Origin: Fibrobacterota bacterium
Lineage (GTDB): Bacteria; Fibrobacterota; Fibrobacteria; UBA11236
Assembly (NCBI GenBank): GCA_947482115.1
Contig: CANKII010000002.1
Coordinates: 424,137-488,136, forward strand
Direction of reading: 5' to 3'
DNA: 64,000 nucleotides
A program made the position numbers and the translations under genes. Below the pieces are notes generated by a model. That model was not told where the DNA came from and ran no database searches. It was given only the letters and a program-made list of their open reading frames with translations. Positions 19,390 through 64,000 of the stretch are shown here, in pieces (position 1 is the first letter of the stretch; every line of letters starts with the position of its first letter).

Positions 19390-19589
19390 GTTGGGGTTGC
19401 TTTCTTTGAATCTTTGGTTTTTTGCCATCACCTTTGAAGTGCTGATTGCCGGGTAGAAAATCATTATCCCGAGTCGGGGATTAAATACGCAGATCACCTA
19501 CCTCAAATTTATTTCTGTATAGCTTCAAAGCATTGGGAAATTTGTTGTGCCGGGTTAGTGGAGCAAGGTTAGCAAGAATTAGTAAAAGC

Positions 19590-19955
19590 TTATCCGCTTT
19601 GAACTCCATTAGAAGGGCGTTGTTGAAACGCTTCTTCAAATTTTTCTGGTTGCGGGTTGCCGTGTTCGAGCCAATTCATCGCAAAGACGTCAATTTGTGC
19701 CTTAGCATAATCCAACGCACTCGCACCTGTAAAGCCAGAACCAGGAAGCCCTGTTTCTTTTTGTACAACTAAAATGGTTAGCGGTGGCATGTTGTTTATG
19801 AGACAATAAGATTGAATAGGTTCAAGTAATTGACCAAGTCCTGATGTTGGTACACCGATTAGCTTGCTGACATGTCCATATGTCAAAGATTGGCGATTTG
19901 TGGCTGCCCATGCGAGGATGGCCCATATTTGACAGGCGCGTTCAGAGCGATTCAT
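19590..19955 (-). CDS. MGMT/ATL-like winged-helix protein lacking the catalytic Cys (second gene of the AT-rich cassette)
   Basis: The pattern QIWAILAWAA..QSLTYGHVSKLIGVPTSGLGQLLEPIQSYCLINNMPPLTILVVQKETGLPGSGF resembles the methylated-DNA-protein-cysteine methyltransferase DNA-binding fold, but the PCHRV site reads PPLTILVV. TAATG stop/start overlap with the upstream ORF. Confidence 0.6.
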   Translation of the reverse strand: MNRSERACQIWAILAWAATNRQSLTYGHVSKLIGVPTSGLGQLLEPIQSYCLINNMPPLTILVVQKETGLPGSGFTGASALDYAKAQIDVFAMNWLEHGNPQPEKFEEAFQQRPSNGVQSG

Positions 19956-20686
19956 TAAAGCCCCCCCAAGGCAGGGTAAGTGAATTGGCTGATTATTTTA
20001 AAATGCCATGATAAAAGATCTTTTGCGTACTTACACAATAAGCAATGCTTATAGAATACGTAGTTTATCTCGCCCGAAGCATAGTCTAGGAGCATTTGAT
20101 GGGCGTATCTTTGGTCCGAATGCTGTAATATCCCGTTGTATAAGTAACCAAAGTTTGATTGCGCTAGAATGAACTTTATTGCTTTGTTGTGTTCGCCTAA
20201 AAATTTTAAGAATAGGGCGGTAATATCTCGGTCACATTCGTCGAGTACCGTTAAGACCAAACCTTTTGTTTCGTCTCTATTTTTCATTAGCGAACAACAG
20301 TAAGCGTTAATTTTTGAATAGTGTATTGAGTCGCTTTGATTGCTTAATATCGAACGATACTCGTTCAAAAGGAGTCTAAGGGAATTGTGTTCCTTGAAAT
20401 AATATTTTCCATCTTCAGCTTCTTGGATCGCGGTATTTTCGATCACTGGTAAATGATTATACCTGCTCACGAAACATATGGCCTGGGCCTTTTCTTCTTC
20501 TGTTAGAAGATCTCTGGCAACCATTGTTCTAATTTGAAAAGAAAATGATTTTGGCATTTTCGTTTCAATAATTTGGCCAACACCTTTTCCGATTTCATTA
20601 ACTTCTCTCAATACGTCACTAAGTTTTGATTGAATTCTGGAAATTTCCAGCGGGTTCTCTTTTCTTTGTTCAAATCTTAGCTTCAT
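19955..20686 (-). CDS. Hypothetical 243-aa protein (first gene of the AT-rich cassette)
   Basis: Long ORF in a visibly AT-rich segment. Predicted mostly helical, with no motif I recognise. Translationally coupled to 19590-19955. Confidence 0.6.
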   Translation of the reverse strand: MKLRFEQRKENPLEISRIQSKLSDVLREVNEIGKGVGQIIETKMPKSFSFQIRTMVARDLLTEEEKAQAICFVSRYNHLPVIENTAIQEAEDGKYYFKEHNSLRLLLNEYRSILSNQSDSIHYSKINAYCCSLMKNRDETKGLVLTVLDECDRDITALFLKFLGEHNKAIKFILAQSNFGYLYNGILQHSDQRYAHQMLLDYASGEINYVFYKHCLLCKYAKDLLSWHFKIISQFTYPALGGL

Positions 20687-20706
20687 ATGAAAGGGGAACT
20701 TTCCCC

Positions 20707-21234
20707 CTACTTCTCACTCAGCGTCTTCAAATTCCCCAACCCCTCTTCAAAATCCTTCCCAATCAACTTGTCCATATTGCAAAAGATTCCCATGACTTTC
20801 ATCATGTAAGGACTCGACCCGCTCATGGCCCATGTCACCATCGTCGCTTCACCCTCGGGCGCCAGCGTGAAATTGACGACGTTGTGTCCCGCAAAAGGTT
20901 TGATAAAGTCGAGTTTCATTGTCACCTTCGATGGCGTGACAGCTTCCGAGATCTCCATTGATCCTGCGCCAGCTTTCGAATTGCCGTCCCACGCAAGCAC
21001 CGCGCCCACGCCACTGTCCGGCCCGCTAAAGGTTTTCTTCATCGCTGGATCCAGTTTTTCAAACGGCGACCACGAACCCCAAACATGCAGATTATTGAGG
21101 AGCAGGAAGATTTTCTCCGGCGGAGCCTTGATGCTGGCCGAACGTTGAACGACAAATGTGTTCGGCTTGGTCGCGGCAAAAATCAGGATTGCGGCGATCA
21201 CGATGACGAGGGTGATGAGGATTTTCTTGAACAT
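20707..21234 (-). CDS. SRPBCC-family (polyketide cyclase/dehydrase-like) protein with an N-terminal TM anchor
   Basis: MFKKILITLVIVIAAILIFAA.. then ..VQRSASIKAPPEKIFLLLNNLHVWGSWSPF, an SRPBCC pattern. Confidence 0.8.
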   Translation of the reverse strand: MFKKILITLVIVIAAILIFAATKPNTFVVQRSASIKAPPEKIFLLLNNLHVWGSWSPFEKLDPAMKKTFSGPDSGVGAVLAWDGNSKAGAGSMEISEAVTPSKVTMKLDFIKPFAGHNVVNFTLAPEGEATMVTWAMSGSSPYMMKVMGIFCNMDKLIGKDFEEGLGNLKTLSEK

Positions 21235-21417
21235 GGTGGCCTCCGGGGGGTAATTTTCAGCTTAAAGGTTAGACAATATTATCCCGGTCGTTTCGGCTAC
21301 GCTCAACGACCAGACGCGAGCTATTCCGCTGGCTGAGCGGCTTGTGCTGAGCCTGTCGAAGTAAGCCGAAGCCAGCAACTTGCCAACCCCCTGCACAATT
21401 GGGATTTTCTCTGTCAG

Positions 21418-22485
21418 ATGAAAGAAGCTGACCTGCGGTGTTTCAATCGAATTTTCCTGATTGCCGTCCTGTTTTCCGGCGCATTCCGGCTTTCATTCGC
21501 CCAATCCTCCGCTTGGACAGTGCGAACATCGGGAACAACAGCCGAAATGCATTCCGTGGCGTGGGGGGGATCCGGCGGCGGACAGTTCGTCGCCGTCGGC
21601 GCGGGCGGTACCATTCTCACTTCTCCCAACGGTGTGACTTGGACTTCGAGGGCAGTAGGCGCGGAAAATTATCTCAACGCAGTGGTGTGGACGGGAAGTC
21701 AGTGGGTTGCGGTCGGTGCGGATACTATAGGAGTGACAGGTGCGATTCTCACTTCAGTTGATGGATCTTCATGGATCTCGCGGAATTCCGGAACAACCGC
21801 TCCTTTGCTGTCAGTCACATGGGCCGTCAATCAGCTGGTTGTTGGAGGCAAACGCGGTGTTATTCTCACTTCACCGAACGGGGTAAACTGGACTTCGCGC
21901 ACTTCAGGAACAATGGACGGGGTGAGTGCCTTGGTTTCAAACGGCTCCCAAATTGTTGCGGTCAGTGATGCCGGAGCCATCCTGACATCGCCGAATGGTG
22001 CGACGTGGACAACCAGTGTTGCGAGCACCATGAATTCCCTGTACTGTATTGCATGGACAGGTTCGGAATTTGTGACTGCGGGCGTGTCTTCGATGAAAAC
22101 CTCCATGGACGGGATTATATGGACTTCACTGGCTTCGGGATCTTCCGATATTCGCGGGATCGCTTATACCGGGGCACAATTAGTTGCCGTGGGGTTTAAT
22201 GGCGCCCTACAAAGCTCTGCGAACGTTGTGAACTGGACGACCCGCAATTCGGGAACGACAAACACCCTGTACTCGGTTGTTTCAAACGGAGCGCTCTTGG
22301 TGGTAGTGGGAAAAAACGGCACCATCCTGACTTCACCGCTTGATCCCGTGGCCAACTTTCGCCATTTACAAATCCGGAATAATTCCGCTCCTGGGTTGAC
22401 CTTGTATCAATTCTTTACAGCTTACACCTTGAACGGGAGAAAACAGATTGTGTTGCCAACCCCCTTCAGAAAAGGGATTTTCTAG
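21418..22485 (+). CDS. Secreted beta-propeller protein (Ycf48/BNR-like blades)
   Basis: Signal peptide, then about 7 repeats of G(T/A)ILTS.(N/D)G..WT.(R) spaced about 40 aa apart. Confidence 0.75.
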   Translation: MKEADLRCFNRIFLIAVLFSGAFRLSFAQSSAWTVRTSGTTAEMHSVAWGGSGGGQFVAVGAGGTILTSPNGVTWTSRAVGAENYLNAVVWTGSQWVAVGADTIGVTGAILTSVDGSSWISRNSGTTAPLLSVTWAVNQLVVGGKRGVILTSPNGVNWTSRTSGTMDGVSALVSNGSQIVAVSDAGAILTSPNGATWTTSVASTMNSLYCIAWTGSEFVTAGVSSMKTSMDGIIWTSLASGSSDIRGIAYTGAQLVAVGFNGALQSSANVVNWTTRNSGTTNTLYSVVSNGALLVVVGKNGTILTSPLDPVANFRHLQIRNNSAPGLTLYQFFTAYTLNGRKQIVLPTPFRKGIF

Positions 22486-40972: not shown

Positions 40973-42343
40973 ATGACCTTCAAGACGAAAATCCTCTGCA
41001 TCGGCGCAGGTTACGTGGGCGGCCCCACCATGACCATGATCGCCCGCAAATGCCCCACCTACAAAGTCACGGTTGTGGACATCAACAAGGCGCGCATCGA
41101 CGCATGGAACAGCGACAACATTCCCATCTATGAACCGGGGCTCGATGAAGTGGTGAAGGCAGCGCGTGGAAAGAATCTGTTCTTTTCCACCGACGTCGAT
41201 CAGGCGATTCGCGAAGCGGACATCATTTTCGTTTCGGTGAACACGCCGACCAAAACGTTTGGTGAAGGCGCGGGTCGCGCTCCCGATTTGCAGTACTGGG
41301 AAAAAACAGCGCGACAAATTCTCGCCAATTCTGATTCCTCGAAAATCATCGTGGAGAAATCCACCTTGCCTGTGCGCACCGCAGAGGCGATGGAACGCAT
41401 TTTGAACGGTAATCCGAAGGGCATTGAATTCGAGGTGCTGTCGAATCCGGAATTCCTCGCCGAAGGCAGCGCCATTCAGGATTTGGAAAATCCGGATCGC
41501 GTGCTCGTCGGTTCGCGCGAAACGCCTTCCGGTCTTGCGGCGCGCAAGGCCCTTGTGGACATTTATGCGCATTGGGTTCCGAAGGAAAAAATCATCGAGT
41601 CCAATGTGTGGAGCGCAGAACTTTCCAAGTTGGCGGCCAACGCTTTTCTTGCCCAACGCATTTCCTCCATCAACAGCATTTCAGCGTTGTGTGAAAAGAC
41701 CGAAGCGGATGTGGGCGAAGTCTCTTACGCCATCGGCATGGACAGCCGCATCGGCCCGAAATTCCTGAAGGCCAGCGTGGGCTTCGGCGGCTCCTGTTTT
41801 CAAAAGGATATTCTGAATCTGGTTTACATCTGCGAGTCATATGGATTGCACGAGGTTGCGGATTATTGGGAATCCGTGGTGCGCATGAATCAATGGCAGC
41901 AGAAACGGTTTGTGCAGAATATTCTGACGGGAATGTTCAGGACAGTTGCCGGAAAACGCATCGCACTCCTCGGCTTCGCCTTTAAGGCGGACACGGGGGA
42001 CACCCGCGAATCCCCGGCCATCTCGGTGGCGCTGGGATTATTGGAGGAAAAGGCGCAGGTGGTCGTTTCCGATCCGAAGGCGCTGGAAAACGCGAAGAAG
42101 GATCTGGCGGGCGCGGAAGTGATTTATGAGGAGGATCCTTATAAAGCGGCGGACGGGGCGCATGCGATTGCCATTCTGACGGAGTGGAAGTTGTATAAGG
42201 AACTGGATTACGCGAAAATCTTTAAATCCATGAAACAACCGGCTTTCATTTTTGATGGACGGAATATTCTGGATCACAAGAAATTGTTTGAGATGGGTTT
42301 CAATGTTTTTGCGATTGGTAAAGCAGCCCTGAAACATTTTTAG
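40973..42343 (+). CDS. ugd: UDP-glucose 6-dehydrogenase
   Basis: [13 protein letters not shown] Rossmann motif and [10 protein letters not shown] catalytic Cys. 456 aa from ATG 40973. Confidence 0.93.
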
Positions 42344-42378
42344 ATAGCGTAAAAAACGCAGAATCGGTTTAGGTTGTT

Positions 42379-42864
42379 ATGGATGTTAGCGGTATTGCAG
42401 TTACGATTGCTAAATGGGCCGTTGGAAGGATTTCAACAAAGCTTGCGGTTAAGCTCTTTCCATTTAACAATGATGGCCTGATAATTAGAGATTTGCGAGG
42501 ATCGCTTTTTCAAAAAGCTCAAAATGTCTTGGATTTGTCCTTTTATTTCGTGATCCAGAATTTTTCTGGATATGATGTTGAGATTCAATATGTTTGTCTT
42601 CGTGGCCGCAAAAATTCCGATCCCTTGTTTGTTTTGTCCGTGCCCGAACATTATGTTATAGCTGAAAAAGCTTACAAAGACTGCACGATTTCTGGAACAA
42701 TTTTTCCGGGGCAATCTGACATCATTGTTAATAAAGTAAAGACCACTTATAATCCGAATGAGATTGGAGTAAGTCTTGAAGTGAATTTTAAATACGATAA
42801 AATTGTCAGAACAGTTTATGTGAGAAACGATATGTTTCCGATCCAAGCTAATTGGACGAGTTAA
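42379..42864 (+). CDS. Hypothetical protein (AT-rich orphan)
   Basis: 161-aa ORF in a visibly AT-rich segment between ugd and dgkA. Beta-rich, with no recognised motif. Confidence 0.5.
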   Translation: MDVSGIAVTIAKWAVGRISTKLAVKLFPFNNDGLIIRDLRGSLFQKAQNVLDLSFYFVIQNFSGYDVEIQYVCLRGRKNSDPLFVLSVPEHYVIAEKAYKDCTISGTIFPGQSDIIVNKVKTTYNPNEIGVSLEVNFKYDKIVRTVYVRNDMFPIQANWTS

Positions 42865-42875
42865 AAACCCCTGTT

Positions 42876-43271
42876 ATGAATAAATCCCGTTTTACTTTTT
42901 CCAGTCGCTTCCGCAGCATTTCCTGCGCTCTCAACGGTATTCGAATCCTAATCTCCACCCAGCACAATGCATGGATTCACCTCTTTGCAACAGCGATCAT
43001 CATCCCCGCCGGATTTTATTTTCATCTCGTCAGAACCGAATGGCTGTGGATTATTCTCGCGGTCACTTCCGTGTGGGCCGCAGAGGCGTTTAACACAGCC
43101 ATCGAATATTTAACGGATCTCGCTTCGCCAGAGATTCATCCACTCGCAGGAAAGGCCAAGGATGTGGCTGCGGGTGCGGTGTTGATTACAGCGATGAGCG
43201 CGGCGGTGATTGGCCTGTTGATTCTCGGCCCGCATGTTTGCCTTCATTTCTGCCCTAAAACCGGACCTTGA
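42876..43271 (+). CDS. dgkA: Diacylglycerol/undecaprenol kinase DgkA (prokaryotic type)
   Basis: Three TM helices and the conserved E.FNTAIE......H.LAGKAKDVAAGAVL. Confidence 0.88.
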   Translation: MNKSRFTFSSRFRSISCALNGIRILISTQHNAWIHLFATAIIIPAGFYFHLVRTEWLWIILAVTSVWAAEAFNTAIEYLTDLASPEIHPLAGKAKDVAAGAVLITAMSAAVIGLLILGPHVCLHFCPKTGP

Positions 43272-43321
43272 CGACCAATTAGTGTCATTGTAAATTGTCC
43301 ACATAGAGGAGGACATTTGAC

Positions 43322-43726
43322 ATGACTCGGATCCTGACCAAACCAGCCGCCAAAAGGACTGCTGTTATTCGAAGCACCCTTCCGCATCCTTCCAAACTTG
43401 TCAGCCATATCCGCGAATTGACGGTGAGTTATGATTTCACTGAACGGGATTTGGCCGATATTTTGGATGTCACTCCCAGATCCATCACCCGTTGGAAAGC
43501 GCGTGATGAAAAACTGTCCAAACAAAAAATCGACCGAATCGACGTTTTGGAATCCATTCTCGATTTGGGGAAAAGAGTTTTGGGATCGGAGACAGAAGTA
43601 AAACATTGGCTTGGCAGTTCCGTGTTTTCCCTCGAAGGTCAAAAGCCGATGGAACTGATTAAAACAGAGTCGGGACGCCGAAGGGTGGAAAACGTCCTGC
43701 TTCAAATCGAAGGTGGAGTTTACTGA
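43322..43726 (+). CDS. Xre/ParS/MbcA-type antitoxin (DUF2384 toxin-binding domain)
   Basis: HTH (LADILDVTPRSITRWK) plus DUF2384 (W...S..LEGQKPMELIKTESGRRRVENVLLQIE.G). Confidence 0.85.
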   Translation: MTRILTKPAAKRTAVIRSTLPHPSKLVSHIRELTVSYDFTERDLADILDVTPRSITRWKARDEKLSKQKIDRIDVLESILDLGKRVLGSETEVKHWLGSSVFSLEGQKPMELIKTESGRRRVENVLLQIEGGVY

Positions 43727-43728
43727 GC

Positions 43729-44181
43729 GTGCTTCTTTATCGAATCTCGCCCAAAGCCTACCTTCCTCAAGATCCAACCGGTGCCGCTGCTACTTCGGAA
43801 GGTCGTTGGCATTTGATGGGGCAGCGTGTTTTGTATTTCTCCTCGTCCTTGTCATTGTGCGTGTTGGAGCTGAAGGCCAACGCTATTTCCTTTGAGCGCA
43901 TCCGAACCGCATACCATTATTGCACGATGAATGTGGATTCGATCAAGAATAGTGAATTCGTGGTGGATTCCTTTTATTCCAAGGATTGGACTCTTGATAA
44001 ACGGGCGTCACAACAATATGGCGCGGATTGGTTCAGCCGGAAAAGTTCTTTGATTCTAAAGGTTAAGAGTGCCGTTCTGCCTGTCGAGTGGAATTATCTC
44101 GTCAATACAACACACCGGGATTTCACATCGCTTTCTTTTCCCAGCCCTCTTTCTATTCCATTGGATTCCCGATTAAACTGA
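43729..44181 (+). CDS. RES-domain toxin (NAD+-depleting family)
   Basis: GTG start 2 nt after the antitoxin stop. Matches are GRWH (R), LYFSSSLSLCVLE (E) and a downstream S-containing strand. Typical size of 150 aa. Confidence 0.8.
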   Translation: MLLYRISPKAYLPQDPTGAAATSEGRWHLMGQRVLYFSSSLSLCVLELKANAISFERIRTAYHYCTMNVDSIKNSEFVVDSFYSKDWTLDKRASQQYGADWFSRKSSLILKVKSAVLPVEWNYLVNTTHRDFTSLSFPSPLSIPLDSRLN

Positions 44182-44949
44182 ACGCAGCCGTTCCAAAAAG
44201 AATTCCACGGCCGCAGTTCCGGCTTCGCCCAAGTTCCTCGTAAACTCATTCACGTACAAGTCGATATGCGACCGCATCACTTCGGATTCCATCGACTGCG
44301 AATGCTTCGCGCACAGTTCCAGCGCTTCGGATTCATGCGCCCAGGCCCAATCCAGACTGGCCCGAATTACCGCTTCGATTTCACCAGTCGTTGGCATATC
44401 CGATTGCTGTTGATATGCCAAAGCACCGAGTGGAATCGGAAATCCCGTTTTGCGTTCCCAATATTCTCCCAAATCCTGTACCAACTTTAATCCGTCCCGC
44501 GCATAGGTGAAGCGCATCTCGTGGATCACCACGCCTTGGGCATCCGGACGCGTGCAGAGTTCGCGATACAATTCATCAAATGGAAGGAACCGTTTGCGCT
44601 GTGAACCACCCGACCAAAAGTCGAAGAGAAAATTCGCCGTGGTTTGTTCTCCCGGAACCAAAGTCTCCACTTCGGGATTCCACGGATTTCCACCAGTCAG
44701 CAGCAGCGGGCCGCAACCGCGTCCTAATGCACCGCCGCAATTCAGCAATTTGTAGTTCGGGCAATTCAGCGCATTGGCATAGCTGATCTTCACCAAATCA
44801 CACGAGTTGTTTTGCGCCAGACGATTCAAAGTCTGCACATCCTCGAAAACAAATTCCGGATTCCACGCCGTTTCGATTTGCCCGAGCAAAAGTCCGGAGA
44901 AGATGAATACATCATTGGGACAAGGGGAAATGCCGACTTTGAGTTTCAC
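44173..44949 (-). CDS. mqnD: 1,4-dihydroxy-6-naphthoate synthase MqnD
   Basis: KVGISPCPNDVF...L and NCGGALGRGCGPLL. GTG 44949 gives a GTGA overlap with the mqnB stop. The track start ATG 44988 is the alternative. Confidence 0.85.
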   Translation of the reverse strand: MKLKVGISPCPNDVFIFSGLLLGQIETAWNPEFVFEDVQTLNRLAQNNSCDLVKISYANALNCPNYKLLNCGGALGRGCGPLLLTGGNPWNPEVETLVPGEQTTANFLFDFWSGGSQRKRFLPFDELYRELCTRPDAQGVVIHEMRFTYARDGLKLVQDLGEYWERKTGFPIPLGALAYQQQSDMPTTGEIEAVIRASLDWAWAHESEALELCAKHSQSMESEVMRSHIDLYVNEFTRNLGEAGTAAVEFFLERLRSV

Positions 44950-56417: not shown

Positions 56418-59400
56418 TTACCGCGTGAACATCATGGACAGGTGTTTGTCTTCCACCTGAATATCCAACACGTAGGTTCCTTGCGGCAGAATCACCTTGG
56501 AGATGTCCACGAAATTTCTCCCGGAGTTTCGGATGCCTTCGGATACGTTGGCCATCAGGCGTCCCCTGAAGTCCGTCACGGAAATTTTTATGCGCGCCTT
56601 GTGAAGCAAATCGAATCCGATTTCACCGTCACGACCGATTTCCAGATCGCGCAAGCCCCGCTTCGCTGTAGTATTCCGGATCAAGGTCGGTGCCCTTAAA
56701 ATTCCACCGGTGCCGGAACCGGTTTCAAATCCCGCAGAATACGCGGTGTCCACGGTGGGAAAGCAAATGGAATAAAGATCCCTCTTGGAGCCGCTGGTTT
56801 GGGGAAGCCAGGTCAATCCGCCGTTCACGGTTTTGAGGATGACGCCATACCCGCCGGCCGCATAGCCCGTTTTGACATCGGTGAATCTCACGCTGTACAG
56901 GGTGGAATGGATCCCGCTGTTCAATGCCGTCCACGTATTTCCCGAATCCGAAGTTTTAAGAATGGTTCCACCGGTTCCCACGGCATAACCGATGTCGGCG
57001 GACGGAAAATGAATGGAGAACAGGGATTTCACTTTGGCCCCTGTCTTGAGAGTCCAGACGGTTCCTCCATTCTTCGTTTGGAGAATGGTTCCGCCTTCCC
57101 CCACGGCGAAACCCGTGCTGTCATTGTTAAAGAAAACAGATGTCAGATACTTTGAGGTGCCGCTGGTTTGAAGGCTCCAGCTCAAGCCGCCATCCTGACT
57201 TTTGATGATGGCGCCGCCGTATCCCACGGAATAGCCCACGTCGTGATTTGGAAAATGGATCGAATACAGCCAATGCGCGCTGTTGTCATTTCCCCATGCC
57301 GGAGTCCATGTAACTCCGCCGTTAATCGTTCTGTACACGCTTCCCTGTACACCTCCGCCTTTGCCCACGGCAAAACCGGTGTTGGCATCGGTAAAGTGGA
57401 CACCATACAAGGTGTTTCTGCGGTCGGCGGTCTGGGGATTCCACGTGACGCCCGCGTCTGTTGTTTTGGAGATGGTGCCGCCGCTTCCCACTGCATAACC
57501 CGTATTCGCATTCGTGAAATACACGGATTGCATCGCGACTGGTGTGGTGGAGATTTCATTCCATGAAAGGGTGGGTACAATCACCGAGATGATTAGAACA
57601 TTCGTGGTGGAACCCTGGCTGTTGCTGGCAGTGATGGTGTAATAGTTGCCTCCTTCACTGGACAGGGTCGGAACTCCGGAGATGATGCCCGTCAGGCTGT
57701 TGATGGAGAGCCCGGGTGGCAGGGAAGGGGAGACAGAATAATGGGTGACTGTGCCGGTGACAGTGGGCGAGTCATTCATGATGGTTTTGCCGACTGTAAA
57801 CGTTGCGGGATTCTGGCTGTAGGAAAGTCCGCCCGGCGGAAGACTGTTCACGGTGATGTTCACGATCGCCGTCGTCGAACCTCCGCCATTGGTGGCGGTG
57901 ACGGTGTAATTCGCAGCAGCAGTAAAGGTGGTGGTAACGCCGGAAATGACACCGGTGGAAGTGTTGAGGGAAAGTCCTGCGGGAAGCGTCGGGCTCACGG
58001 AGTAACTGGTGACGGTGCCCGTGACCGTCGGAACATTCGGCGTGATGGTGGTACCCAAGGTGTAAGTGACGGGAGTTGTATAGAGCAGGTTGGAAGGTGC
58101 GGCATTGTTCACCGTGATATTCACAATGGCTGTGGTGGAGCCTCCGCCATTGGTGGCGGTGACGGTGTAATTCGCAGCTCCAGCCAAAGCCGAGGGAACT
58201 CCGGAAATGACACCGGTGGAAGTGTTGAGAGAAAGTCCTGTGGGTAAGGTTGGACCCACAGAATAGCTGGCAACAGTTCCAGTGACCGTCGGCGTATTAG
58301 CGGTGATCGCCGAACCCAAGGTGTAAGTGACAGGCGTGGTATAAAGCAGACCGGAAGGCGCGGCATTATTCACGGTGATATTCACCGTGGCGGTGGTGAA
58401 GCCTCCAATGTTGGTGGCGGTCACAACGTAATTCGTTGCAGTGGCTAAAGCGGAAGGAACCCCGGAAATGACACCGGTGGAAATGTTGAGGGAAAGTCCT
58501 GCTGGCAATGCCGGACTGACGGAATAACTGGCAACGGTTCCCGTGACCGTGGGCGTGTTGGCGGTGATGGCCGTACCCAAAGTGTAGGTGACTGGCGTGG
58601 CATAGGTGAGGTTGGAAGGCGCGGCATTGTTCACCGTAATATTCACGGTGGCGATTGTCGAGCCGCTGCCATTGGTGGCCGTGATGATGTAATTCGCTGC
58701 GGCAGCCAAAGCCGTGGGAGCGCCGGATATCACACCCGTGGTGGCGCTGAGTGAGAGGCCCGCAGGCAAAGCCGGACTTACGGAATAACTGGTAACGGTT
58801 CCCGTGACCGTAGGCGTATTGGGATTGATGTCGGTACCCAAGGTGTACGTGACGGGAGTGGTATAAGCAAGGTTTGTGGGCGGTGCATTGTTCACGGTGA
58901 TGTTCACGATGGCCGTTGTGGATCCTCCACCATTGGAGGCGGTGACGGTGTAATTCGCAGCCGCCACCAAAGCCGTGGGAGTTCCGGAAATCACACCGGT
59001 GGAAGTATTGAGGGTAAGACCCGCGGGCAAAGGCGGACTCACGGAATAACTGGCGACGGTTCCCGTAACGGTTGGCGTATTGGGATTGATGGCCGCGTTG
59101 AGAGTGTAGGTGACGGGAGTGACATACATGAGATTGGTGGGCGGTGCATTGTTCACGGTGATGTTCACCGTCGCTGTGATCGAACCGCCAAAGTTGGCCG
59201 CCGTGACGATGTAATTGGAAGCGGCGACGGCCACCGTCGGCGTGCCGGAAATAATGCCGCTGCTGGCATGGATCCCGAGACCTTTGGGCAACGCCGGGCT
59301 CACGGAGTAAGTGACATTGATTGTGCCTCCCCCCAAAGTCGGGACGTTGGGGTTGATGGGGGCGTTAATGGTGTAGATGACGGGCGTGTTGTAATAGAGG

Positions 59401-60818
59401 CTCGTGGGCGGTTGCATCACCGTAATGGTGAATGGGAGTGAAAGCGAGGTCATGCCCACGCTGTTGTGCGCGGTAATGGTTTCTGCATAGCTACCGGTCG
59501 TGGTGGGTCGTCCGGTGATAATCCCTGTCACGGTATCCATGGTGAGGCCCGGAGGCAATGGGGCGGACAGAGAGAAGCGGGTGACCACGCCGTTGTATTT
59601 GGGGACATTCGGGGGAATGAGGGAATCCTTGTAGTAAGCTCCGTTATGCGAATAAGTGAGGACGGATGGCGGGTTCAGTAAAGCAGGTCTGAATTTGACC
59701 AGGGAATCTGCTCGGGGTTGCTGGTTCTTGTAGCTCAACCGGATCCAGTCGGGGGATCGCGCCACCTTGGACAATTCCCCCTCGTCAAACTTCCCGCAAA
59801 AATATGCGTCCGTCGAAAAGGCGGGTCTTCCCAAATACCCGTTGCTGCGCAACGTGTCCTTGATGTTGTAAATAAAACTGCCACCCCCGATTTTATTGCC
59901 GTCCTTGTAAAGCGTGGCGGTGAGGTTGGCGAAGGTGACGCTGTATTGGTGCCACTCGTTCGGTATCAGTGCTCCACTAGCGGAGGCTCCCTGCAAGATG
60001 GTTCCCGTGGGTCCGCCGGCCTGCAACCAGTTGATATCCGTGCTGGTCAGCGACTGGTTGAATTTGATGTTGTCCTGCGGAAGATTGGATCCCGGCGCAT
60101 TGAACACCTCGAAGAAAGATTCGTTGGGCTGTCCGGCGATGTTGGTGGGATACATCCACACCGAATAGGTGAAGCCGGTGGTGAAGGTTTTGTAGCCGCT
60201 GCCGATGTCGAAATACTGGTTGGTTCCATTGAGGGTGTCGGCCCAGCCGATGACGCCAGTCCGGCCCGCATTGGCAATGGTCAAATTCGCAGGTGTCGCG
60301 ACATTGCCTCCAGCCACCGCGTTGGGTCTCGCCGTGCTTGCCGATATTCCGCTGGGCTCCACTCCCAGATGCCAGACGGAATGGAATCCATTGGCGGAGT
60401 CGAACACGGCGCGCGGGTTCGAGCTGTCTCCGGCGGCGCTCTTTCCCCAGTACATGCGAATGCTGCGTGCGGTCAGTCCGGTGTCATTTCCATACACCGT
60501 ATCCGGCAAAACCCAAATCTCCGCCACCTGCTGGCCTTTGCTCCAACGCTCGATCTGGTAGGGAAGATGTATGGCTGCACTCGAGGCTCTGGAGAAACGG
60601 ATGTCCCTGCCATTGCTGTCGGCCGTCTGCGAGAAATCGAAATTGGTGGACTTGAGACGGATGAGGATCGGAATCTTTGCGACGTTGGCGGTGACTCCGG
60701 CTGTTCTGCTGTCAAAACTGATGTTCTTGTAATACGACCATTGGCTGTAAGTGTCCGCAGCAGACGCTGCGGTGATCGCAGATATCAGAACGGCTAAAAA
60801 GACAGATTTTCTGTCCAT
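56418..60818 (-). CDS. Giant secreted surface protein: DUF2341 + LamG-like lectin + about 9 Ig-like (putative Ig/cadherin-like) repeats + Ycf48/BNR-like propeller + T9SS tail
   Basis: 1466 aa. The N-terminus W.YYKNISF...........IPILIRL....FDFS....NGRDIRF......L.YQIE.W......IWV matches DUF2341. It continues with a LamG-like segment (..WHQYSVTF....LYKDG), about 78-aa repeats (P..L.Y..PVTYTLG..I..N.PTVTG.V.SYSVSP.LPAGLSLN..TG.ISG.P), propeller blades (GGTI.KT.DGG.TW) and a C-terminal ..LPQGTYVLDIQVEDKHLSMMFTR. Confidence 0.85.
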   Translation of the reverse strand: MDRKSVFLAVLISAITAASAADTYSQWSYYKNISFDSRTAGVTANVAKIPILIRLKSTNFDFSQTADSNGRDIRFSRASSAAIHLPYQIERWSKGQQVAEIWVLPDTVYGNDTGLTARSIRMYWGKSAAGDSSNPRAVFDSANGFHSVWHLGVEPSGISASTARPNAVAGGNVATPANLTIANAGRTGVIGWADTLNGTNQYFDIGSGYKTFTTGFTYSVWMYPTNIAGQPNESFFEVFNAPGSNLPQDNIKFNQSLTSTDINWLQAGGPTGTILQGASASGALIPNEWHQYSVTFANLTATLYKDGNKIGGGSFIYNIKDTLRSNGYLGRPAFSTDAYFCGKFDEGELSKVARSPDWIRLSYKNQQPRADSLVKFRPALLNPPSVLTYSHNGAYYKDSLIPPNVPKYNGVVTRFSLSAPLPPGLTMDTVTGIITGRPTTTGSYAETITAHNSVGMTSLSLPFTITVMQPPTSLYYNTPVIYTINAPINPNVPTLGGGTINVTYSVSPALPKGLGIHASSGIISGTPTVAVAASNYIVTAANFGGSITATVNITVNNAPPTNLMYVTPVTYTLNAAINPNTPTVTGTVASYSVSPPLPAGLTLNTSTGVISGTPTALVAAANYTVTASNGGGSTTAIVNITVNNAPPTNLAYTTPVTYTLGTDINPNTPTVTGTVTSYSVSPALPAGLSLSATTGVISGAPTALAAAANYIITATNGSGSTIATVNITVNNAAPSNLTYATPVTYTLGTAITANTPTVTGTVASYSVSPALPAGLSLNISTGVISGVPSALATATNYVVTATNIGGFTTATVNITVNNAAPSGLLYTTPVTYTLGSAITANTPTVTGTVASYSVGPTLPTGLSLNTSTGVISGVPSALAGAANYTVTATNGGGSTTAIVNITVNNAAPSNLLYTTPVTYTLGTTITPNVPTVTGTVTSYSVSPTLPAGLSLNTSTGVISGVTTTFTAAANYTVTATNGGGSTTAIVNITVNSLPPGGLSYSQNPATFTVGKTIMNDSPTVTGTVTHYSVSPSLPPGLSINSLTGIISGVPTLSSEGGNYYTITASNSQGSTTNVLIISVIVPTLSWNEISTTPVAMQSVYFTNANTGYAVGSGGTISKTTDAGVTWNPQTADRRNTLYGVHFTDANTGFAVGKGGGVQGSVYRTINGGVTWTPAWGNDNSAHWLYSIHFPNHDVGYSVGYGGAIIKSQDGGLSWSLQTSGTSKYLTSVFFNNDSTGFAVGEGGTILQTKNGGTVWTLKTGAKVKSLFSIHFPSADIGYAVGTGGTILKTSDSGNTWTALNSGIHSTLYSVRFTDVKTGYAAGGYGVILKTVNGGLTWLPQTSGSKRDLYSICFPTVDTAYSAGFETGSGTGGILRAPTLIRNTTAKRGLRDLEIGRDGEIGFDLLHKARIKISVTDFRGRLMANVSEGIRNSGRNFVDISKVILPQGTYVLDIQVEDKHLSMMFTR
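57582..59672 (-). repeat. Tandem coding repeats (about 234 bp, about 9 units) inside the giant gene
   Basis: The central units are near-identical at the protein level (NAAPSNL.YTTPVTYTLGT.IT.N.PTVTGTV.SYSVSP.LPAGLSLNTSTGVISG.P.ALA.AANYTVTATNGGGSTTAIVNITV). Confidence 0.85.
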
Positions 60819-61001: not shown

Positions 61002-61397
61002 ATGAAACAGGCTTCGCTCTTTGCAATGTGTGCGGTGTTCTTGTCGGGCTTTGTCGCGGATGTTCACGCGGCGCGGGGTATCGTGACCACAAAACCCGGG
61101 GGAGGAGGTGCGGCCAGCGGCAAGATTTTGAACCCGGCGGACTCCGGCGGCGATGCATCGACGCAGTCTTCTCCGGATGCGGCGGCGAAACCGGCGGAAG
61201 GGAAGAAAGGTCTCAATGCGGTGAACGTGAAGCTGGCGAGGGAGAAAGCGCCGAGTGATTCGGCTTTGGGTTCGGATCCGGTCGAAACGCAGGAGGGTAA
61301 TGTCACTATCAAAGGGGTAAGGGTGAACATCAACCGGACGGCTCCAGGCGATTCGGATTCGGGAGTGAAAAGGGTTTTGCCGACGGTGAATAAGTAG
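61002..61397 (+). CDS. Small secreted Gly/Ala/Ser-rich protein, hypothetical
   Basis: Signal peptide MKQASLFAMCAVFLSGFVADVHA followed by a low-complexity body. Confidence 0.5.
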   Translation: MKQASLFAMCAVFLSGFVADVHAARGIVTTKPGGGGAASGKILNPADSGGDASTQSSPDAAAKPAEGKKGLNAVNVKLAREKAPSDSALGSDPVETQEGNVTIKGVRVNINRTAPGDSDSGVKRVLPTVNK

Positions 61398-61621
61398 GGA
61401 ACGGGAGACGGATTATGAGAAAGATCTGTTTTTAAGGCTTTCTATCCCTGCGTTCCATTGTTTTCCCCATCCTCTCCCTGTCAGCTTCTTTAATGTCTTT
61501 GTTGGCGCTATTTTACAGGAGGTACACTTCGGCCACAGGTCATCCAAAAATTCTGACACAGGTTCGACGCCGCTGACGAGCAAGTGTATCCACAGTATTT
61601 TTAGGTTCCAAGAAAACTATC

Positions 61622-62185
61622 ATGCGCGACTATTTTTATGAAAAATTTCCTTCGCAATTTTCCAGTATTGCCACTCAACGTCCGAACGGCACTGTCCGTG
61701 GACACATCCTGGCAGACCCGTCCGTAATCTTCTTTGGTGGGGCTGATTGGAAGAATGTTGCAAAGGATCTTAACGCGATACCCATGTCGGATCGATCTCG
61801 ATTCGTCTTCGCTTTGTTTATGGTGGTCTTGACGGATCAAGCGTTATATGCGCACTTCCGCGACTCATATGATGCATGGCGAAGGAGAACAAACTTTCCC
61901 AAGTTTGGCTGGTCGGGCTTTGGTCCCCACAACGAAAATCCTTTCAAAATCCTCTGGGCCCCAGAGCGAGAGGGGTTAATCGACAGCAAGGAATTTCTTG
62001 GGGCGATCCCCGAATTCGTGAGGTTTTTTATGGATGAAACGACTTCTTGTTTTCGCCAATACCTTCCGGAAGTGGACCTGCTGGCATTCTTTAATGCGAT
62101 CAAAATCGATAGTGGATACACCTTTCATGAGGGTGAGATCGTCTCTCGAGTTAAGGAGGAATTTGAACTCCTAACAAACGGCTGA
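61622..62185 (+). CDS. Hypothetical 187-aa protein in the lower-GC segment
   Basis: Clean ORF convergent with 62196-63284 (10-nt gap). No signal peptide and no recognised motif. Confidence 0.55.
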   Translation: MRDYFYEKFPSQFSSIATQRPNGTVRGHILADPSVIFFGGADWKNVAKDLNAIPMSDRSRFVFALFMVVLTDQALYAHFRDSYDAWRRRTNFPKFGWSGFGPHNENPFKILWAPEREGLIDSKEFLGAIPEFVRFFMDETTSCFRQYLPEVDLLAFFNAIKIDSGYTFHEGEIVSRVKEEFELLTNG

Positions 62186-62195
62186 ATGGAGGGCT

Positions 62196-63284
62196 TCACT
62201 CTTTCGCTAGACAGCAATTGCTGGGATCGACTGGCGCAAGGCAGATACATCTCCCAGTAGGAAGCAAAGGAAATATTGCGGCGCGATCGATATCGGAGCG
62301 AAAATCAAGACTATATCTGATGATCGTCTGACAAATCTTCCTAAGGGCAAGTTCTTCCGCTTTTAATTTTCCTGAAGTATAAGCCCCGAATATGAACGCA
62401 TATCTTTGCATTAAGCTGAGTGTTTTTTCTGTGGCCATCCGCAATTCGCGATAATCTTCTGACCAGTCTGAGGAATGAACAGGATGCCAAGCTATTTCGG
62501 AAATGTGTAAGTGCGGATGAGCTGTAGAAGGTGCCACTTGTTGTTCAACTTCCATGAAAGCCCCGCGATTGGGATGGACAAACTCTGAAAGAAAGGTGTA
62601 TAAACTTCCAAAATCGACATGACTTAGTGGTTCGAAATTTCGTACAGCATCTTCGATAGATGCTAGTAGTTCACCAATTGAATCCTTTCGATCTCGAAAA
62701 TCAGCTATGTCTGAAAAGCGAATGTCGGCTCTATCATAAGGCTTGAACTCTCCAGTTTCGATTAAATGGATCCAGTCCACGCCCGTTCTTTCTGCTCGTT
62801 CCCAAAGGGATTTTAATAAATATGGTGTTTTGTCAAACACTTCAGTTGGGTATCTGCCGGCACGGCATTCCTTTTCCAAGGATTTGAAAAGTTGCCCTCC
62901 CTGAGTAGAAACAACATTTGCCACCTTAGTGCATATCCCGCAAACCTCCAAGAGTAGTCGAGTATTGTAAGCGCGCCATCTAATTCGATCTCGTTCGCGA
63001 AATGAATTTAGAGCATCAACAATTGTTGTTGCAACTCTGTATCGCTGTCTACGAATTAATTCAGCGCTACCCGCAATGGCAAGCAAATCTCGTGTGAAAT
63101 CCAAGAGGCGATCTCCGGTATGCTCAGATACCAAATGGCCTATTTTCAGAGCACGAGGTTCCGAATCAAGCCAGCCACAAGAATCTTTCATCAGCGTATG
63201 AAAGCTTGAGGGTTCGAACCGCAGGAGTGTAGCGACTTGATCAAAGGAGTATAGCGTATTTGAATTAGCATTTGTGCGTTGCAT
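62196..63284 (-). CDS. Hypothetical 362-aa protein downstream of the brxL-like gene
   Basis: Strong SD (GGAGGTGG) 5 nt upstream of ATG 63284. Helical protein with no recognised family. Contains RNFEPLSH (an Rx6H string) and FVHPNRG. Confidence 0.65.
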   Translation of the reverse strand: MQRTNANSNTLYSFDQVATLLRFEPSSFHTLMKDSCGWLDSEPRALKIGHLVSEHTGDRLLDFTRDLLAIAGSAELIRRQRYRVATTIVDALNSFRERDRIRWRAYNTRLLLEVCGICTKVANVVSTQGGQLFKSLEKECRAGRYPTEVFDKTPYLLKSLWERAERTGVDWIHLIETGEFKPYDRADIRFSDIADFRDRKDSIGELLASIEDAVRNFEPLSHVDFGSLYTFLSEFVHPNRGAFMEVEQQVAPSTAHPHLHISEIAWHPVHSSDWSEDYRELRMATEKTLSLMQRYAFIFGAYTSGKLKAEELALRKICQTIIRYSLDFRSDIDRAAIFPLLPTGRCICLAPVDPSNCCLAKE

Positions 63285-63429
63285 TACACCACCTCCAGTT
63301 CCTAGAGCTCTACCGCCACCAGATGCCCACCCTGAATCAACTCCTGAAACTTATCATCCAACATTCGCGCAATCCTCGGATCTTTTACCAATAATCCCGC
63401 TTCAATGTTCCGGCGTTGAGCCGCTTCGG

Positions 63430-64000
63430 TCAAATTTGCAGAGCTTTTAGCAACGCATCACGGGCGTCCAAGTAGTAGTGGATGGTAACCTTAGCTGCGA
63501 GATCGTCGGGCAGGTCGTTCAATTGCCTTCGACTGCTGATTGGCATGAGGATGCTAGCCGCACCTTTTTCAATGGCAGTTTCAACAACTGCCACCGGATT
63601 GAAGATAGTTTCAATGGAACCCCCAAGGTTCAAACCTCCCGTGACTGCAAGACCGCCTTTAATGCTTTTCTGAAGTAGTGAAGAACAAAGGGCGAGTAAT
63701 ACGCCAACGCCAACAGAAGCACCGCTCTTAGCACTGTCAAAGGCACGCAGTTGAACTGAAAATTCGTGTTGACGAGGTTCGCGATCCCCAACAAGCTCCT
63801 TTGCACGCGAATAGAGATTCTGTTCAGCGCAACGGACACTTTCCTTGAAGGGTGGTGAAGGCGGTTGGTTTAAAATCTTAACCCCGGCACCAGGCCCACC
63901 TGTAATATCCACCCGGTACAAACCCGTGTTTTCTTCACCGCCACCGGGCGCAATGACCCAGACCTGCCCGGGCGGAAGAGGATCGCTTCCAATGCTGTTT
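63430..64000 (-). CDS. brxL: BrxL-like Lon-protease-domain protein, C-terminal part (5' end off-window)
   Basis: The minus-strand ORF is open to the window edge. The sequence ..EFSVQLRAFDSAKSGASVGVGVLLALCSSLLQKSIKGGLAVTGGLNLGGSIETIFNPVAVVETAIEKGAASILMPISSRRQLNDLP..L..K..IHYY.DA.DALLKAL follows the Lon_C-like C-terminal pattern I associate with BREX BrxL (TIGR02688-type). Confidence 0.6.
   Translation of the reverse strand, partial: NSIGSDPLPPGQVWVIAPGGGEENTGLYRVDITGGPGAGVKILNQPPSPPFKESVRCAEQNLYSRAKELVGDREPRQHEFSVQLRAFDSAKSGASVGVGVLLALCSSLLQKSIKGGLAVTGGLNLGGSIETIFNPVAVVETAIEKGAASILMPISSRRQLNDLPDDLAAKVTIHYYLDARDALLKALQI

What the first reader, a model, noticed from the sequence alone, without database searches (positions are those of the whole stretch)
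61398..64000. Window ends inside a BREX-type defence locus; a lower-GC tail downstream of brxL carries only uncharacterised ORFs
The partial ORF at 63430-64000 has the Lon-protease-like C-terminal domain typical of BrxL. BrxL is normally the last gene of type 1 BREX (brxA-brxB-brxC-pglX-pglZ-brxL). The 2.6 kb from about 61400 onward is visibly AT-richer than the neighbouring chromosome. It contains one 362-aa ORF in the same orientation as brxL, a convergent 187-aa ORF and a possible micro-ORF, none with a family I can name. Defence islands commonly append novel accessory or independent systems directly after brxL. This is the best candidate in the window for an undescribed system.
Basis: partly seen in the sequence, partly recalled or inferred. 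Interest (0 to 1): 0.75.

Follow-up and report, generated by a model that had tools for sequence, protein, structure and literature searches.

The report
Patchwork gene tail after BREX
The window does end inside a known anti-phage system (type 1 BREX), but the AT-rich stretch after it is a patchwork of a dead nuclease-gene stub and two unrelated genes of unknown function rather than one new defence system; one of those genes belongs to a conserved family with an unrecognised fold that is worth testing.

Summary
Window 63430-64000(-) is the C-terminus of BrxL. Contigs of the same organism show brxC-pglX-pglZ-brxL directly upstream. The 2 kb after brxL has 45.9% GC against 52.4% for the window.

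The "micro-ORF" is a stub of a DrmC-type phospholipase-D nuclease gene. It is about 47 codons long, lacks the catalytic His, Lys and Asp of the HKD motif, and is fused out of frame onto the last codons of brxL. It is a deletion scar.

The 362-aa and 187-aa ORFs never occur together elsewhere. They converge, and their third-codon-position GC (GC3) differs: 0.36 against 0.52. They are independent cargo, not a module.

The 362-aa protein belongs to a very rare helical family distantly linked to DUF5677, with a C-terminal SEC-C-like Cys4 motif. A remote homologue sits in the same position after a type III-like restriction operon.

The 187-aa protein belongs to a conserved family with a confident model (pLDDT 90) and no structural relative in PDB or BFVD. 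Its divergent branches repeatedly sit beside WYL-WCX regulators and ADP-ribosylglycohydrolases. The window copy stands alone.

This is an ordinary defence-island edge with one good lead.

The parts
63430..64000 (-). 3' end of brxL: the C-terminal 189 codons plus the stop, encoding the LonP-type domain. This is the last gene of a type 1 BREX operon that continues beyond the window.
   Evidence: PADLOC BrxL 1.6e-51, TIGR02653 2.5e-23, Pfam Lon_C 1.3e-11. The full-length 683-aa protein in L001 has BrxL_N, BrxL_ATPase and Lon_C. brxC-pglX-pglZ lie upstream.
63302..63445 (-). Stub of a DrmC-type phospholipase-D (HKD) nuclease gene. About 47 codons remain, from the 'SSAN' of the GSxN motif to the native stop. 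It is out of frame with brxL and overlaps brxL's last ~5 codons. The catalytic His, Lys and Asp are missing.
   Evidence: The 43-aa ORF matches PADLOC DrmC at 2.8e-10 (model positions 224-264 of 267) and NCBIfam DISARM_DrmC_I at 3e-8. In the same frame, the similarity starts upstream of the TTG at SSANLT. It is 51% identical over 37 aa, E 8e-12, to the DrmC of a Nostoc plasmid locus laid out helicase-like protein / hypothetical protein / PLD, which I read as DISARM.
63290..63296 (-). Shine-Dalgarno GGAGGTG, 5 nt upstream of the ATG of the 362-aa ORF and just after the stub's stop codon.
   Evidence: Read directly from the sequence.
62196..63284 (-). 362-aa ORF on the same strand as brxL. It is an all-helical protein of a very rare family, distantly linked to DUF5677, with a C-terminal CxC...CC (SEC-C-like) zinc-knuckle motif. 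It has the lowest GC in the tail (44.3%, GC3 0.36).
   Evidence: Two homologues in 5.8 billion proteins and 11 hits in an exhaustive HMMER scan of 1.84 billion representatives. hhalign to the remote subfamily gives 98.9%, E 3e-17. The remote member P0084 hits Pfam DUF5677 at 1.3e-8. Weak SEC-C matches appear. Conserved motifs are RLxLE, VDW, YxFLS[DE]FxHP and CxC..CC.
61622..62185 (+). 187-aa ORF, convergent with the 362-aa ORF (10 bp between the stops). It belongs to a conserved single-domain family with a confidently predicted fold that has no recognised relative.
   Evidence: 73 homologues at 38-65% identity. AF2 gives pLDDT 90.3 and pTM 0.89. Foldseek best E is 1.1 against PDB and 0.88 against BFVD. 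A profile search of PDB sequences finds nothing. All family-invariant residues (F61, D72, Q73, P93, F95, G96, G101, E105, P107) are present.
61398..61621 (.). Low-GC (45%) intergenic stretch upstream of the 187-aa gene. It marks the left edge of the foreign block, which ends at the stop of a host-like 131-aa secreted-protein gene (61002-61397, GC 58.6%).
   Evidence: Composition. No Rfam match. No RNA fold beyond shuffled controls.

Best explanation
The region is the ragged 3' edge of a horizontally acquired type 1 BREX island. It is not a coherent extra system. It has three layers.

(1) The BREX operon, an ordinary system, ends here with a complete LonP-type brxL.

(2) A deletion or recombination scar follows at once. 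It is the last ~47 codons of a DrmC-type PLD nuclease gene, joined out of frame to the last codons of brxL. So another nuclease-bearing defence gene once lay here and was mostly removed. That gene was either a DISARM drmC or a stand-alone HKD nuclease.

(3) A 1.9-kb low-GC block then carries two convergent, intact orphan genes of separate origin.

The 362-aa gene has a strong ribosome-binding site, and no terminator-like site lies between it and brxL. It is therefore probably transcribed by read-through from BREX. I infer that it is a metal-binding helical accessory or stand-alone protein of the kind that rides at the 3' end of methyltransferase-based restriction operons.

The 187-aa gene is a solitary copy of a family with an unrecognised fold. 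Its divergent relatives sit in WYL-regulated ADP-ribosylglycohydrolase (ARG) conflict loci. I infer that it binds or processes an ADP-ribose-related or nucleic-acid ligand and works on its own here.

Shown: gene identities, the scar, the composition, the lack of linkage between the two ORFs, and the neighbourhoods. Inferred: co-transcription and any biochemical role.
For: BREX and BrxL.

The scar: DrmC HMM hits; the frame analysis showing SSANLT overlapping the brxL end; 51% identity to a full-length DrmC; the stub has BREX-like GC of 0.517, while the drop to 0.443 starts at the 362-aa ORF.

Independence of the two ORFs: no 187-family gene near P0001, P0002 or P0086, and no 362-family gene in any 187-family locus. 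GC3 is 0.36 against 0.52.

Read-through: no terminator-like site on the minus strand between 63430 and 63284; the folding z-score is -0.42; the SD is visible.

The 362-aa family in a parallel position: P0086 lies 133 nt after a ResIII / type III MTase / UvrD array, in an island that also holds GmrSD, ParE/RelB and an integrase. Its homology to the window protein is secured by hhalign at 98.9%.

The 187-aa family: a WYL-like regulator lies nearby in 9 context groups. These make about 7 lineages out of about 28 with usable flanks, if the three related betaproteobacterial loci are counted once. ARG lies nearby in 6 groups and RecBCD in 2. Other contexts hold an RT plus HsdM, HEPN/MNT plus PIN plus McrBC-like genes, an integrase island, or a type I R-M system. 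This pattern matches the ARG-centric conflict systems with WYL or Nudix regulators predicted by Iyer et al. 2022 (PMC9503650). The flank after brxL is variable in related BREX loci.
Against: - No expression or phenotype data exist.
- All contigs holding the tail are identical, so selection on these copies cannot be measured.
- The promoter and terminator scans use sigma-70 and intrinsic-terminator consensus patterns that may not fit this organism.
- The window clade of the 187-aa family mostly lacks WYL/ARG neighbours, and neither gene type occurs in the window or its 10-kb extension. The ADP-ribose link may therefore not apply to this copy.
- Several 187-family contexts look like ordinary metabolism: an ABC transporter, a TonB receptor, RNA polymerase alpha.
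- No background rate of defence genes was computed.
- The DUF5677 link is transitive. The window protein itself gives no Pfam hit.
- brxA and brxB were not seen, because the fetched DNA ends inside brxC.
Confidence: 0.6

Rival explanations
1. One reading: the 362-aa and 187-aa ORFs, with or without the micro-ORF, form one undescribed two- or three-gene defence system appended to BREX.
For: The genes are adjacent, share a low-GC block, are intact, lie next to BREX, and hit no known family.
Against: They never co-occur elsewhere, in 4 other 362-family contexts and about 44 groups of 187-family contexts. They converge with 10 bp between stops, so they cannot share a transcript. Their GC3 differs (0.36 against 0.52). 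The micro-ORF is a catalytically dead DrmC stub.
Confidence: 0.05
2. The 362-aa protein is a true BREX (or restriction-operon) accessory that works with BrxL and PglZ, for example as a sensor, regulator or back-up effector. It is co-transcribed with the operon. The 187-aa gene is unrelated.
For: It lies on the same strand as brxL, with a strong SD and no terminator-like site in the 145-nt gap. The remote homologue P0086 sits in the same place after a type III-like Res-Mod-UvrD array. Auxiliary effectors next to BREX cores are common (PMC12839542).
Against: Only 2 of 5 family contexts follow a methyltransferase operon. P0001 and P0002 lie among hypothetical genes, an HNH gene and an ISL3 transposase. 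The closest BrxL relatives lack it. Its GC3 of 0.36 against about 0.46 for brxL points to a separate and later arrival. The family has only about ten members in billions of proteins.
Confidence: 0.15
3. Both ORFs are functionless or selfish leftovers of mobile DNA that landed in a recombination hotspot. They have no role in defence.
For: The block has foreign composition and sits beside a deletion scar. The 362-aa family is extremely rare, and one homologue lies next to an ISL3 transposase. The one DUF5677 protein tested in the literature was not among those that protected (PMC12632615).
Against: Both ORFs are intact and keep all family-invariant residues. The 187-aa family keeps 38-65% identity across Planctomycetota, Chlorobiaceae, Binatia, Lentisphaerae and Betaproteobacteria, with a confident compact fold. 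That implies purifying selection for a function. Neither family was found in viral contigs.
Confidence: 0.15
4. The 187-aa family acts in DNA repair or the damage response rather than in anti-phage defence. Its presence beside BREX is coincidental.
For: One copy lies 36 nt after recD in a recC-recB-recD array. Another lies upstream of recC-recB. WYL regulators also control DNA-damage regulons (my own knowledge of PafBC and DriD). Neighbours include NERD/UvrD-like and SF1 helicases.
Against: RecBCD is a neighbour in only 2 lineages. Other neighbours are classic defence or mobile-element genes: type I R-M, an RT, McrBC-like genes, toxin-antitoxin pairs, an integrase. Repair and defence roles are not mutually exclusive.
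Confidence: 0.05

Closest known systems
Type 1 BREX (brxA-brxB-brxC-pglX-pglZ-brxL), the sub-group with PglZ 'type B' and LonP-type BrxL
   Same: The gene order brxC-pglX-pglZ-brxL, the domain content and the protein sizes all match. BrxL is 70.5% identical to the Deinococcus sp. NW-56 plasmid BrxL.
   Different: brxA and brxB were not seen because the fetched DNA ends in brxC. Unlike the Bacteroidota plasmid relatives, this locus has no McrBC-like pair between pglX and pglZ. The genes that follow brxL are specific to this locus.
DISARM DrmC, a PLDc_2-type HKD nuclease
   Same: The last ~47 residues align with DrmC models and are 51% identical to the DrmC of a Nostoc plasmid locus that has the DISARM gene layout. 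The match covers the S-x-N end of the HKD motif and the native C-terminus.
   Different: Only about 18% of the gene is left. The catalytic His, Lys and Asp are gone. No drmA, drmB or methylase gene is nearby. It is a pseudogene stub, not a working part. It is not the MIT_C-type HKD domain that replaces LonP in many BrxL proteins (PMC12839542).
Pfam DUF5677 (PF18928) proteins, and SEC-C / YchJ-type C-terminal metal-binding motifs
   Same: The remote family member P0084 passes the DUF5677 threshold (35.5 bits against 27.1). The window protein is linked to it by profile-profile alignment at 98.9%. The shared core includes RLxLE and YxFLS[DE]FxHP. The C-terminal CxC-x8-CC resembles SEC-C.
   Different: The window protein gives no Pfam hit of its own. 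The function of DUF5677 is unknown. It was enriched beside serine recombinases in defence islands, but the tested example was not among the protective ones. The N-terminal ~60 residues are specific to the close subfamily.
ARG-centric conflict systems with WYL or Nudix regulators (Iyer, Burroughs, Anantharaman, Aravind 2022, PMC9503650), and DarHTG (PMC13069673)
   Same: Divergent 187-family genes sit in arrays such as WYL-WCX / 187 / ADP-ribosylglycohydrolase / NERD-UvrD helicase, or ARG <-> 187 / WYL / 5'-nucleotidase. These contain the regulator, glycohydrolase, phosphatase, REase and helicase parts described for those systems. The layout resembles DarHTG, with the 187-aa protein where DarT sits.
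   Different: The window copy has no ARG or WYL gene within the 64-kb window or the 10-kb extension. The 187-aa model is mainly helical, not an ADP-ribosyltransferase or TY-chaperone fold, and matches no PDB structure. I could not tell whether the family is already listed in that paper's supplements, which are not held.

Membership tests
Type 1 BREX | BrxL with BrxL_N, an AAA+ ATPase and a C-terminal Lon-like domain, as the last gene | tested here: met
   PADLOC BrxL 1.6e-51 on the window fragment. The full protein has BrxL_N 1.5e-43, BrxL_ATPase 7.8e-128 and Lon_C 2e-10.
Type 1 BREX | PglZ phosphatase and PglX adenine methyltransferase directly upstream of brxL | tested here: met
   A 770-aa protein with a faint Pfam PglZ hit finds RefSeq 'BREX-1 PglZ type B' by tblastn. 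A 1113-aa protein has Eco57I/N6_Mtase domains and is 43-47% identical to the methyltransferase gene next to brxC in BREX plasmid loci.
Type 1 BREX | BrxC P-loop ATPase | tested here: met
   A 1145-aa gene has a weak BrxC-PglY_N hit. The 710 aa that could be read are 32-36% identical to RefSeq brxC.
Type 1 BREX | brxA and brxB at the 5' end | not testable with these tools
The related plasmid loci do have them.
DrmC / PLD (HKD) nuclease | A complete HxK(x)4D(x)6GSxN catalytic motif in a protein of about 240-270 aa | tested here: not met
   Only S-S-A-N and the C-terminal ~43 residues remain. Upstream, the frame runs into a stop codon and brxL coding sequence with no His, Lys or Asp in register.
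BrxL-HKD fusion (HKD in place of LonP) | The stub resembles the HKD domain found at the C-terminus of BrxL variants | tested here: not met
   The HKD domain of the Mesorhizobium BrxL is MIT_C-type (3.2e-38). BLASTP of the stub against it finds no alignment at E<=100.
Pfam DUF5677 | A match to PF18928 above the gathering score | tested here: inconclusive
   The window protein has no hit at E<=1. The remote homologue P0084 has 35.5 bits against a cut-off of 27.1. The link is A1 against A4 by hhalign, 98.9%, E 3e-17. The other remote members give no hit.
SEC-C metal-binding motif | A C-terminal CxC...C(C/H) zinc knuckle recognised by PF02810 | tested here: inconclusive
   C346, C348, C357 and C358 are invariant across the family. 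Pfam SEC-C reaches only 0.027-0.86 in relatives. The PDB profile hits to 2i9w and YchJ-C have E 0.46-3.5.
ARG-centric (ADP-ribosylglycohydrolase) conflict system | An ADP-ribosylglycohydrolase gene with a WYL or Nudix regulator in the same neighbourhood | tested here: not met
   Profiles built from the ARG and WYL neighbours find nothing in the window or L001. The feature is met only for divergent relatives: L023-25, L059, L061 and L067.
Any catalogued defence protein (PADLOC-DB v2) | A match of the 362-aa or 187-aa protein, or of their homologues, to a PADLOC model | tested here: not met
   No hit at E<=1 for either window protein. None for seven 362-family members at E<=0.01, apart from a stray E2 hit at 0.0076. 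DefenseFinder and later PADLOC releases were not available.

The most novel reading that the evidence does not exclude
The 187-aa protein represents an undescribed protein fold. It would be a working part, either a ligand sensor or an enzyme acting on ADP-ribose-linked targets, of WYL-regulated ADP-ribosylglycohydrolase conflict systems. Solitary copies such as the one beside this BREX locus would then act as single-gene immunity or counter-ADP-ribosylation factors. A second, weaker possibility is that the 362-aa DUF5677-like zinc-knuckle protein is a new auxiliary effector or sensor that plugs into the 3' end of methylation-based systems such as BREX and type III-like R-M.
Probability: 0.2. 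Interest if true: 0.7.

Novelty: new member of a known kind. Interest (0 to 1): 0.4.

Why it matters
As a whole the locus is an ordinary type 1 BREX island with a variable downstream flank, so it does not change how BREX is understood. It still offers three things.

- A clean example of defence-gene turnover. A PLD-nuclease gene has been cut down to a 47-codon stub welded onto brxL.
- A concrete, testable protein family. The 187-aa protein is about 190 aa, conserved across at least five phyla, confidently modelled, and without structural relatives in PDB or BFVD. It is repeatedly placed next to WYL-WCX regulators and ADP-ribosylglycohydrolases. If its activity were found, it could fill in a missing component of the predicted anti-ADP-ribosylation systems.
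- A second observation that a very rare DUF5677-like protein sits at the tail of methyltransferase-based restriction operons.

Tried and rejected
- Two-gene module. Rejected: no co-occurrence in any related locus.
- Stub as the remnant of a BrxL-HKD fusion, suggested by PMC12839542. Rejected: the BrxL HKD domain is MIT_C-type and does not align with the stub.
- PLD gene as a regular part of this BREX sub-type. Not seen in three related loci.
- Structure of the 362-aa protein. AF2 with 3 sequences gave pLDDT 37, which is unusable, so no fold search was run on it.
- More 362-family contexts. The viral scans were empty. A third homologue search added only P0085 and P0086.
- The 391-aa 'variant' of the 362-aa ORF in L007. 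It is a 16-N scaffold gap, not biology.
- The 187-aa protein as an ART/DarT-like toxin or TY-chaperone. The model is mostly helical and has no PDB match, so this is unlikely.
- Phage origin. Neither family is in IMG/VR or PHROGs.
- RNA elements, terminators or structured leaders in the tail. No Rfam match, and folding z-scores run from -0.9 to +0.1.
- Promoter-like and terminator-like sites. Their counts are no higher than in shuffled sequence.
- Profile searches of PDB sequences. Nothing for the 187-aa family and only the SEC-C tail for the 362-aa family.
Full report
**1.

Translating 63430-63999 on the minus strand gives 189 residues ending in a stop. They match PADLOC BrxL at E 1.6e-51 over model positions 492-678 of 680. 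They also match TIGR02653 'protease Lon-related BREX system protein BrxL' at 2.5e-23 and Pfam Lon_C at 1.3e-11.

Looking up the 362-aa and 187-aa proteins by exact sequence returned contigs from several metagenome samples. Their tail DNA is 100% identical to the window. Upstream of the window's end they carry a 683-aa BrxL, a 770-aa PglZ, a 1113-aa methyltransferase and a 1145-aa BrxC.

The full BrxL has BrxL_N, BrxL_ATPase and Lon_C. tblastn of the three other proteins finds RefSeq genes annotated brxC and 'BREX-1 PglZ type B', and the methyltransferase next to brxC in BREX plasmid loci. This is therefore a type 1 BREX operon and not a housekeeping Lon. brxA and brxB lie beyond the DNA I could fetch.

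61398-63429 has 45.9% GC against 52.4% for the window, with an sd of 2.4% for 2-kb windows. The BREX genes have 51-58%.

**2. The micro-ORF is a gene stub**

The 43-aa ORF at 63302-63433(-) matches sixteen PADLOC DrmC models, the best at 2.8e-10 over model positions 224-264 of 267. It also matches NCBIfam DISARM_DrmC_I at 3e-8.

Reading the same frame further upstream shows the similarity starting four codons before the TTG, at 'SSANLT'. That is the G-S-x-N end of the HKD motif.

Against the DrmC of a Nostoc plasmid locus it is 51% identical over 37 residues, E 8e-12. That locus is annotated helicase-like protein / hypothetical protein / PLD, which I read as drmA-drmB-drmC. Upstream of that point there is a stop codon and no His, Lys or Asp in register.

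The stub overlaps the last ~5 codons of brxL in another frame and ends with DrmC's own stop, 17 nt before the next gene. So a DrmC-type nuclease gene once lay downstream of brxL, and a deletion or recombination removed about 80% of it.

A recent survey reports that about a third of type 1 BrxL proteins carry an HKD nuclease in place of LonP (PMC12839542). I tested that origin. The Mesorhizobium BrxL-HKD domain is MIT_C-type and does not align with the stub, so a stand-alone DrmC-type gene is the better source. Three related BREX loci have no PLD gene after brxL and show quite different genes there. This flank is variable.

**3. The 362-aa ORF (62196-63284, minus strand)**

It has no hit in Pfam, PADLOC, NCBIfam or PHROGs.

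- Only two homologues, at about 48% identity, exist among 5.8 billion proteins.
- An exhaustive HMMER scan of 1.84 billion representatives found 11 hits. Three are remote full-length proteins.
- A profile search added two more.
- Profile-profile alignment joins the close and remote subfamilies at 98.9% probability, E 3e-17, over 274 columns.

The shared features are an RLxLE helix, a VDW motif, YxFLS[DE]FxHP and a C-terminal CxC-x8-CC.

One remote member passes the Pfam DUF5677 threshold. The cysteine motif weakly matches SEC-C and YchJ metal-binding tails. The AF2 model from three sequences was unusable at pLDDT 37.

The contexts differ. Two close homologues lie among hypothetical genes, an HNH gene and an ISL3 transposase, without BREX. 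The remote homologue P0086 lies 133 nt after a ResIII / type III methyltransferase / UvrD array, in an island that also has GmrSD, ParE/RelB and an integrase. That mirrors the position seen here.

In the window the gene has a GGAGGTG ribosome-binding site, and no terminator-like site or stable hairpin separates it from brxL. Read-through from BREX is therefore plausible but not shown.

DUF5677 appears in only two of the papers searched. In one it was enriched next to serine recombinases in defence islands, and the tested example was not among the protective genes.

**4. The 187-aa ORF (61622-62185, plus strand)**

It has 73 homologues at 38-65% identity. They come from Planctomycetota (including Rosistilla and Kuenenia), Chlorobiaceae, Binatia, Victivallaceae/Lentisphaerae, Methyloversatilis, Massilia and other Burkholderiales. 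None are in viral contigs.

With 55 sequences, AF2 gives pLDDT 90.3 and pTM 0.89 for a mainly helical domain. Foldseek finds nothing significant in the PDB (best E 1.1, TM <= 0.31) or in BFVD (best E 0.88). A sequence profile finds nothing in the PDB.

The invariant residues D72, Q73 and E105 and the near-invariant H103 and N106 sit in and around a Gly/Pro/aromatic-rich loop, FPKFGWSGFGPHNENP. This suggests a binding or catalytic site.

I gathered about 55 loci, which fall into 44 independent groups. There is no universal partner, but two neighbour families recur.

- WYL-WCX regulators occur in 9 groups once weaker profile hits are counted.
- ADP-ribosylglycohydrolases occur in 6 groups.

Examples:

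- WYL / 187 / ARG / NERD-UvrD helicase on one strand, in Methyloversatilis and an Oxalobacteraceae MAG.
- 187 / WYL overlapping by 4 nt in front of a type I R-M operon.
- ARG <-> 187 / WYL / 5'-nucleotidase / recC-recB.

Other copies lie near an RT and HsdM, near HEPN/MNT, PIN and McrBC-like genes, on an integrase island, or 36 nt after recD. Some lie among ordinary metabolic genes.

In a neighbour-joining tree the WYL/ARG-linked copies, apart from the weak WYL-like hit beside L052, occupy the divergent branches. The window's clade consists mostly of solitary genes. Neither WYL nor ARG occurs in the window or its extension.

The recurrent neighbourhood matches the 'ARG-centric' conflict systems with WYL or Nudix regulators, phosphatases, REases and helicases predicted by Iyer et al. 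2022 (PMC9503650). In layout it also resembles DarHTG (PMC13069673), although the 187-aa model is not an ADP-ribosyltransferase fold.

**5. The two ORFs are not a module**

- No 187-family gene lies near any 362-family gene elsewhere, and the reverse also holds.
- They converge with 10 bp between their stops.
- Their GC3 values are 0.36 and 0.52.

**6. Verdict**

The best reading is a BREX island edge where defence genes have been gained and lost. It consists of a working BREX operon, a dead DrmC stub, and two independently acquired orphan genes.

Mechanistic statements about the orphans are inferences. The 362-aa protein is probably a metal-binding helical accessory expressed with BREX. The 187-aa protein is probably a ligand-binding or enzymatic single-domain factor related to parts of WYL/ARG conflict loci.

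The locus is a new member of a known kind. The 187-aa family is the one lead that could turn out to be new biology.

Noticed in passing
window 43322-44181 (+): A RES-Xre toxin-antitoxin pair: a 134-aa Xre/MbcA/ParS-type antitoxin (Pfam 3.8e-10) directly followed by a 150-aa RES-domain toxin (4.6e-17). It lies inside a second low-GC patch at about 41600-44500.
   Followed up: partly
window 19590-20686 (-): A third low-GC patch (about 18500-21700) holds two abutting ORFs of 243 aa and 121 aa with no Pfam hit, next to a RIO1-type kinase gene (18239-19243). This could be another small foreign insert of unknown function.
   Followed up: partly
L023 8646-13486, L025 8682-13484, L024 219-2808: Methyloversatilis and an Oxalobacteraceae MAG share a same-strand array: WYL-WCX regulator / 187-family gene (4-nt overlap) / ADP-ribosylglycohydrolase / NERD+UvrD-like helicase. 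It converges with a 1134-aa RNase_H_2 + SF1 helicase that has a MkoA-like C-terminus. This looks like an uncharacterised WYL-controlled conflict operon.
   Followed up: partly
L036 1894-16242: A metagenomic defence island: ParE/RelB, a ResIII helicase, a type III methyltransferase, UvrD, the 359-aa DUF5677-like gene, a GmrSD_N protein, a 902-aa CDKN3-phosphatase + ADP-ribosylglycohydrolase fusion, and an integrase.
   Followed up: partly
L076 14511-18027 and L077 14248-17773: BREX-1 relatives with PglZ type B on Haliscomenobacter and Runella plasmids carry an AAA ATPase + McrC-like/restriction endonuclease pair inserted between pglX and pglZ. The window organism's BREX has no such insert.
   Followed up: no
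window 56418-60818 (-): A 1466-aa secreted protein with about seven near-identical He_PIG-type repeats followed by BNR/Ycf48-like repeats. It produces a strong local GC skew (+0.2 to +0.28). In some contigs of the same organism the gene is called as split or shortened ORFs (957+480 aa, 1299+176 aa). One of those contigs (L007) has a scaffold gap elsewhere, so this may be assembly collapse or real repeat variation.
   Followed up: no
L012 9552-10004: In the contig carrying the homologue P0002, a 150-aa ORF with no Pfam hit overlaps the start of the 362-family gene by 4 nt. This possible partner is absent from the window.
   Followed up: partly
L007 about 10623-10638: The 391-aa 'variant' of the 362-aa ORF called in one contig is caused by a run of 16 N (a scaffold gap), not by sequence variation.
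   Followed up: yes
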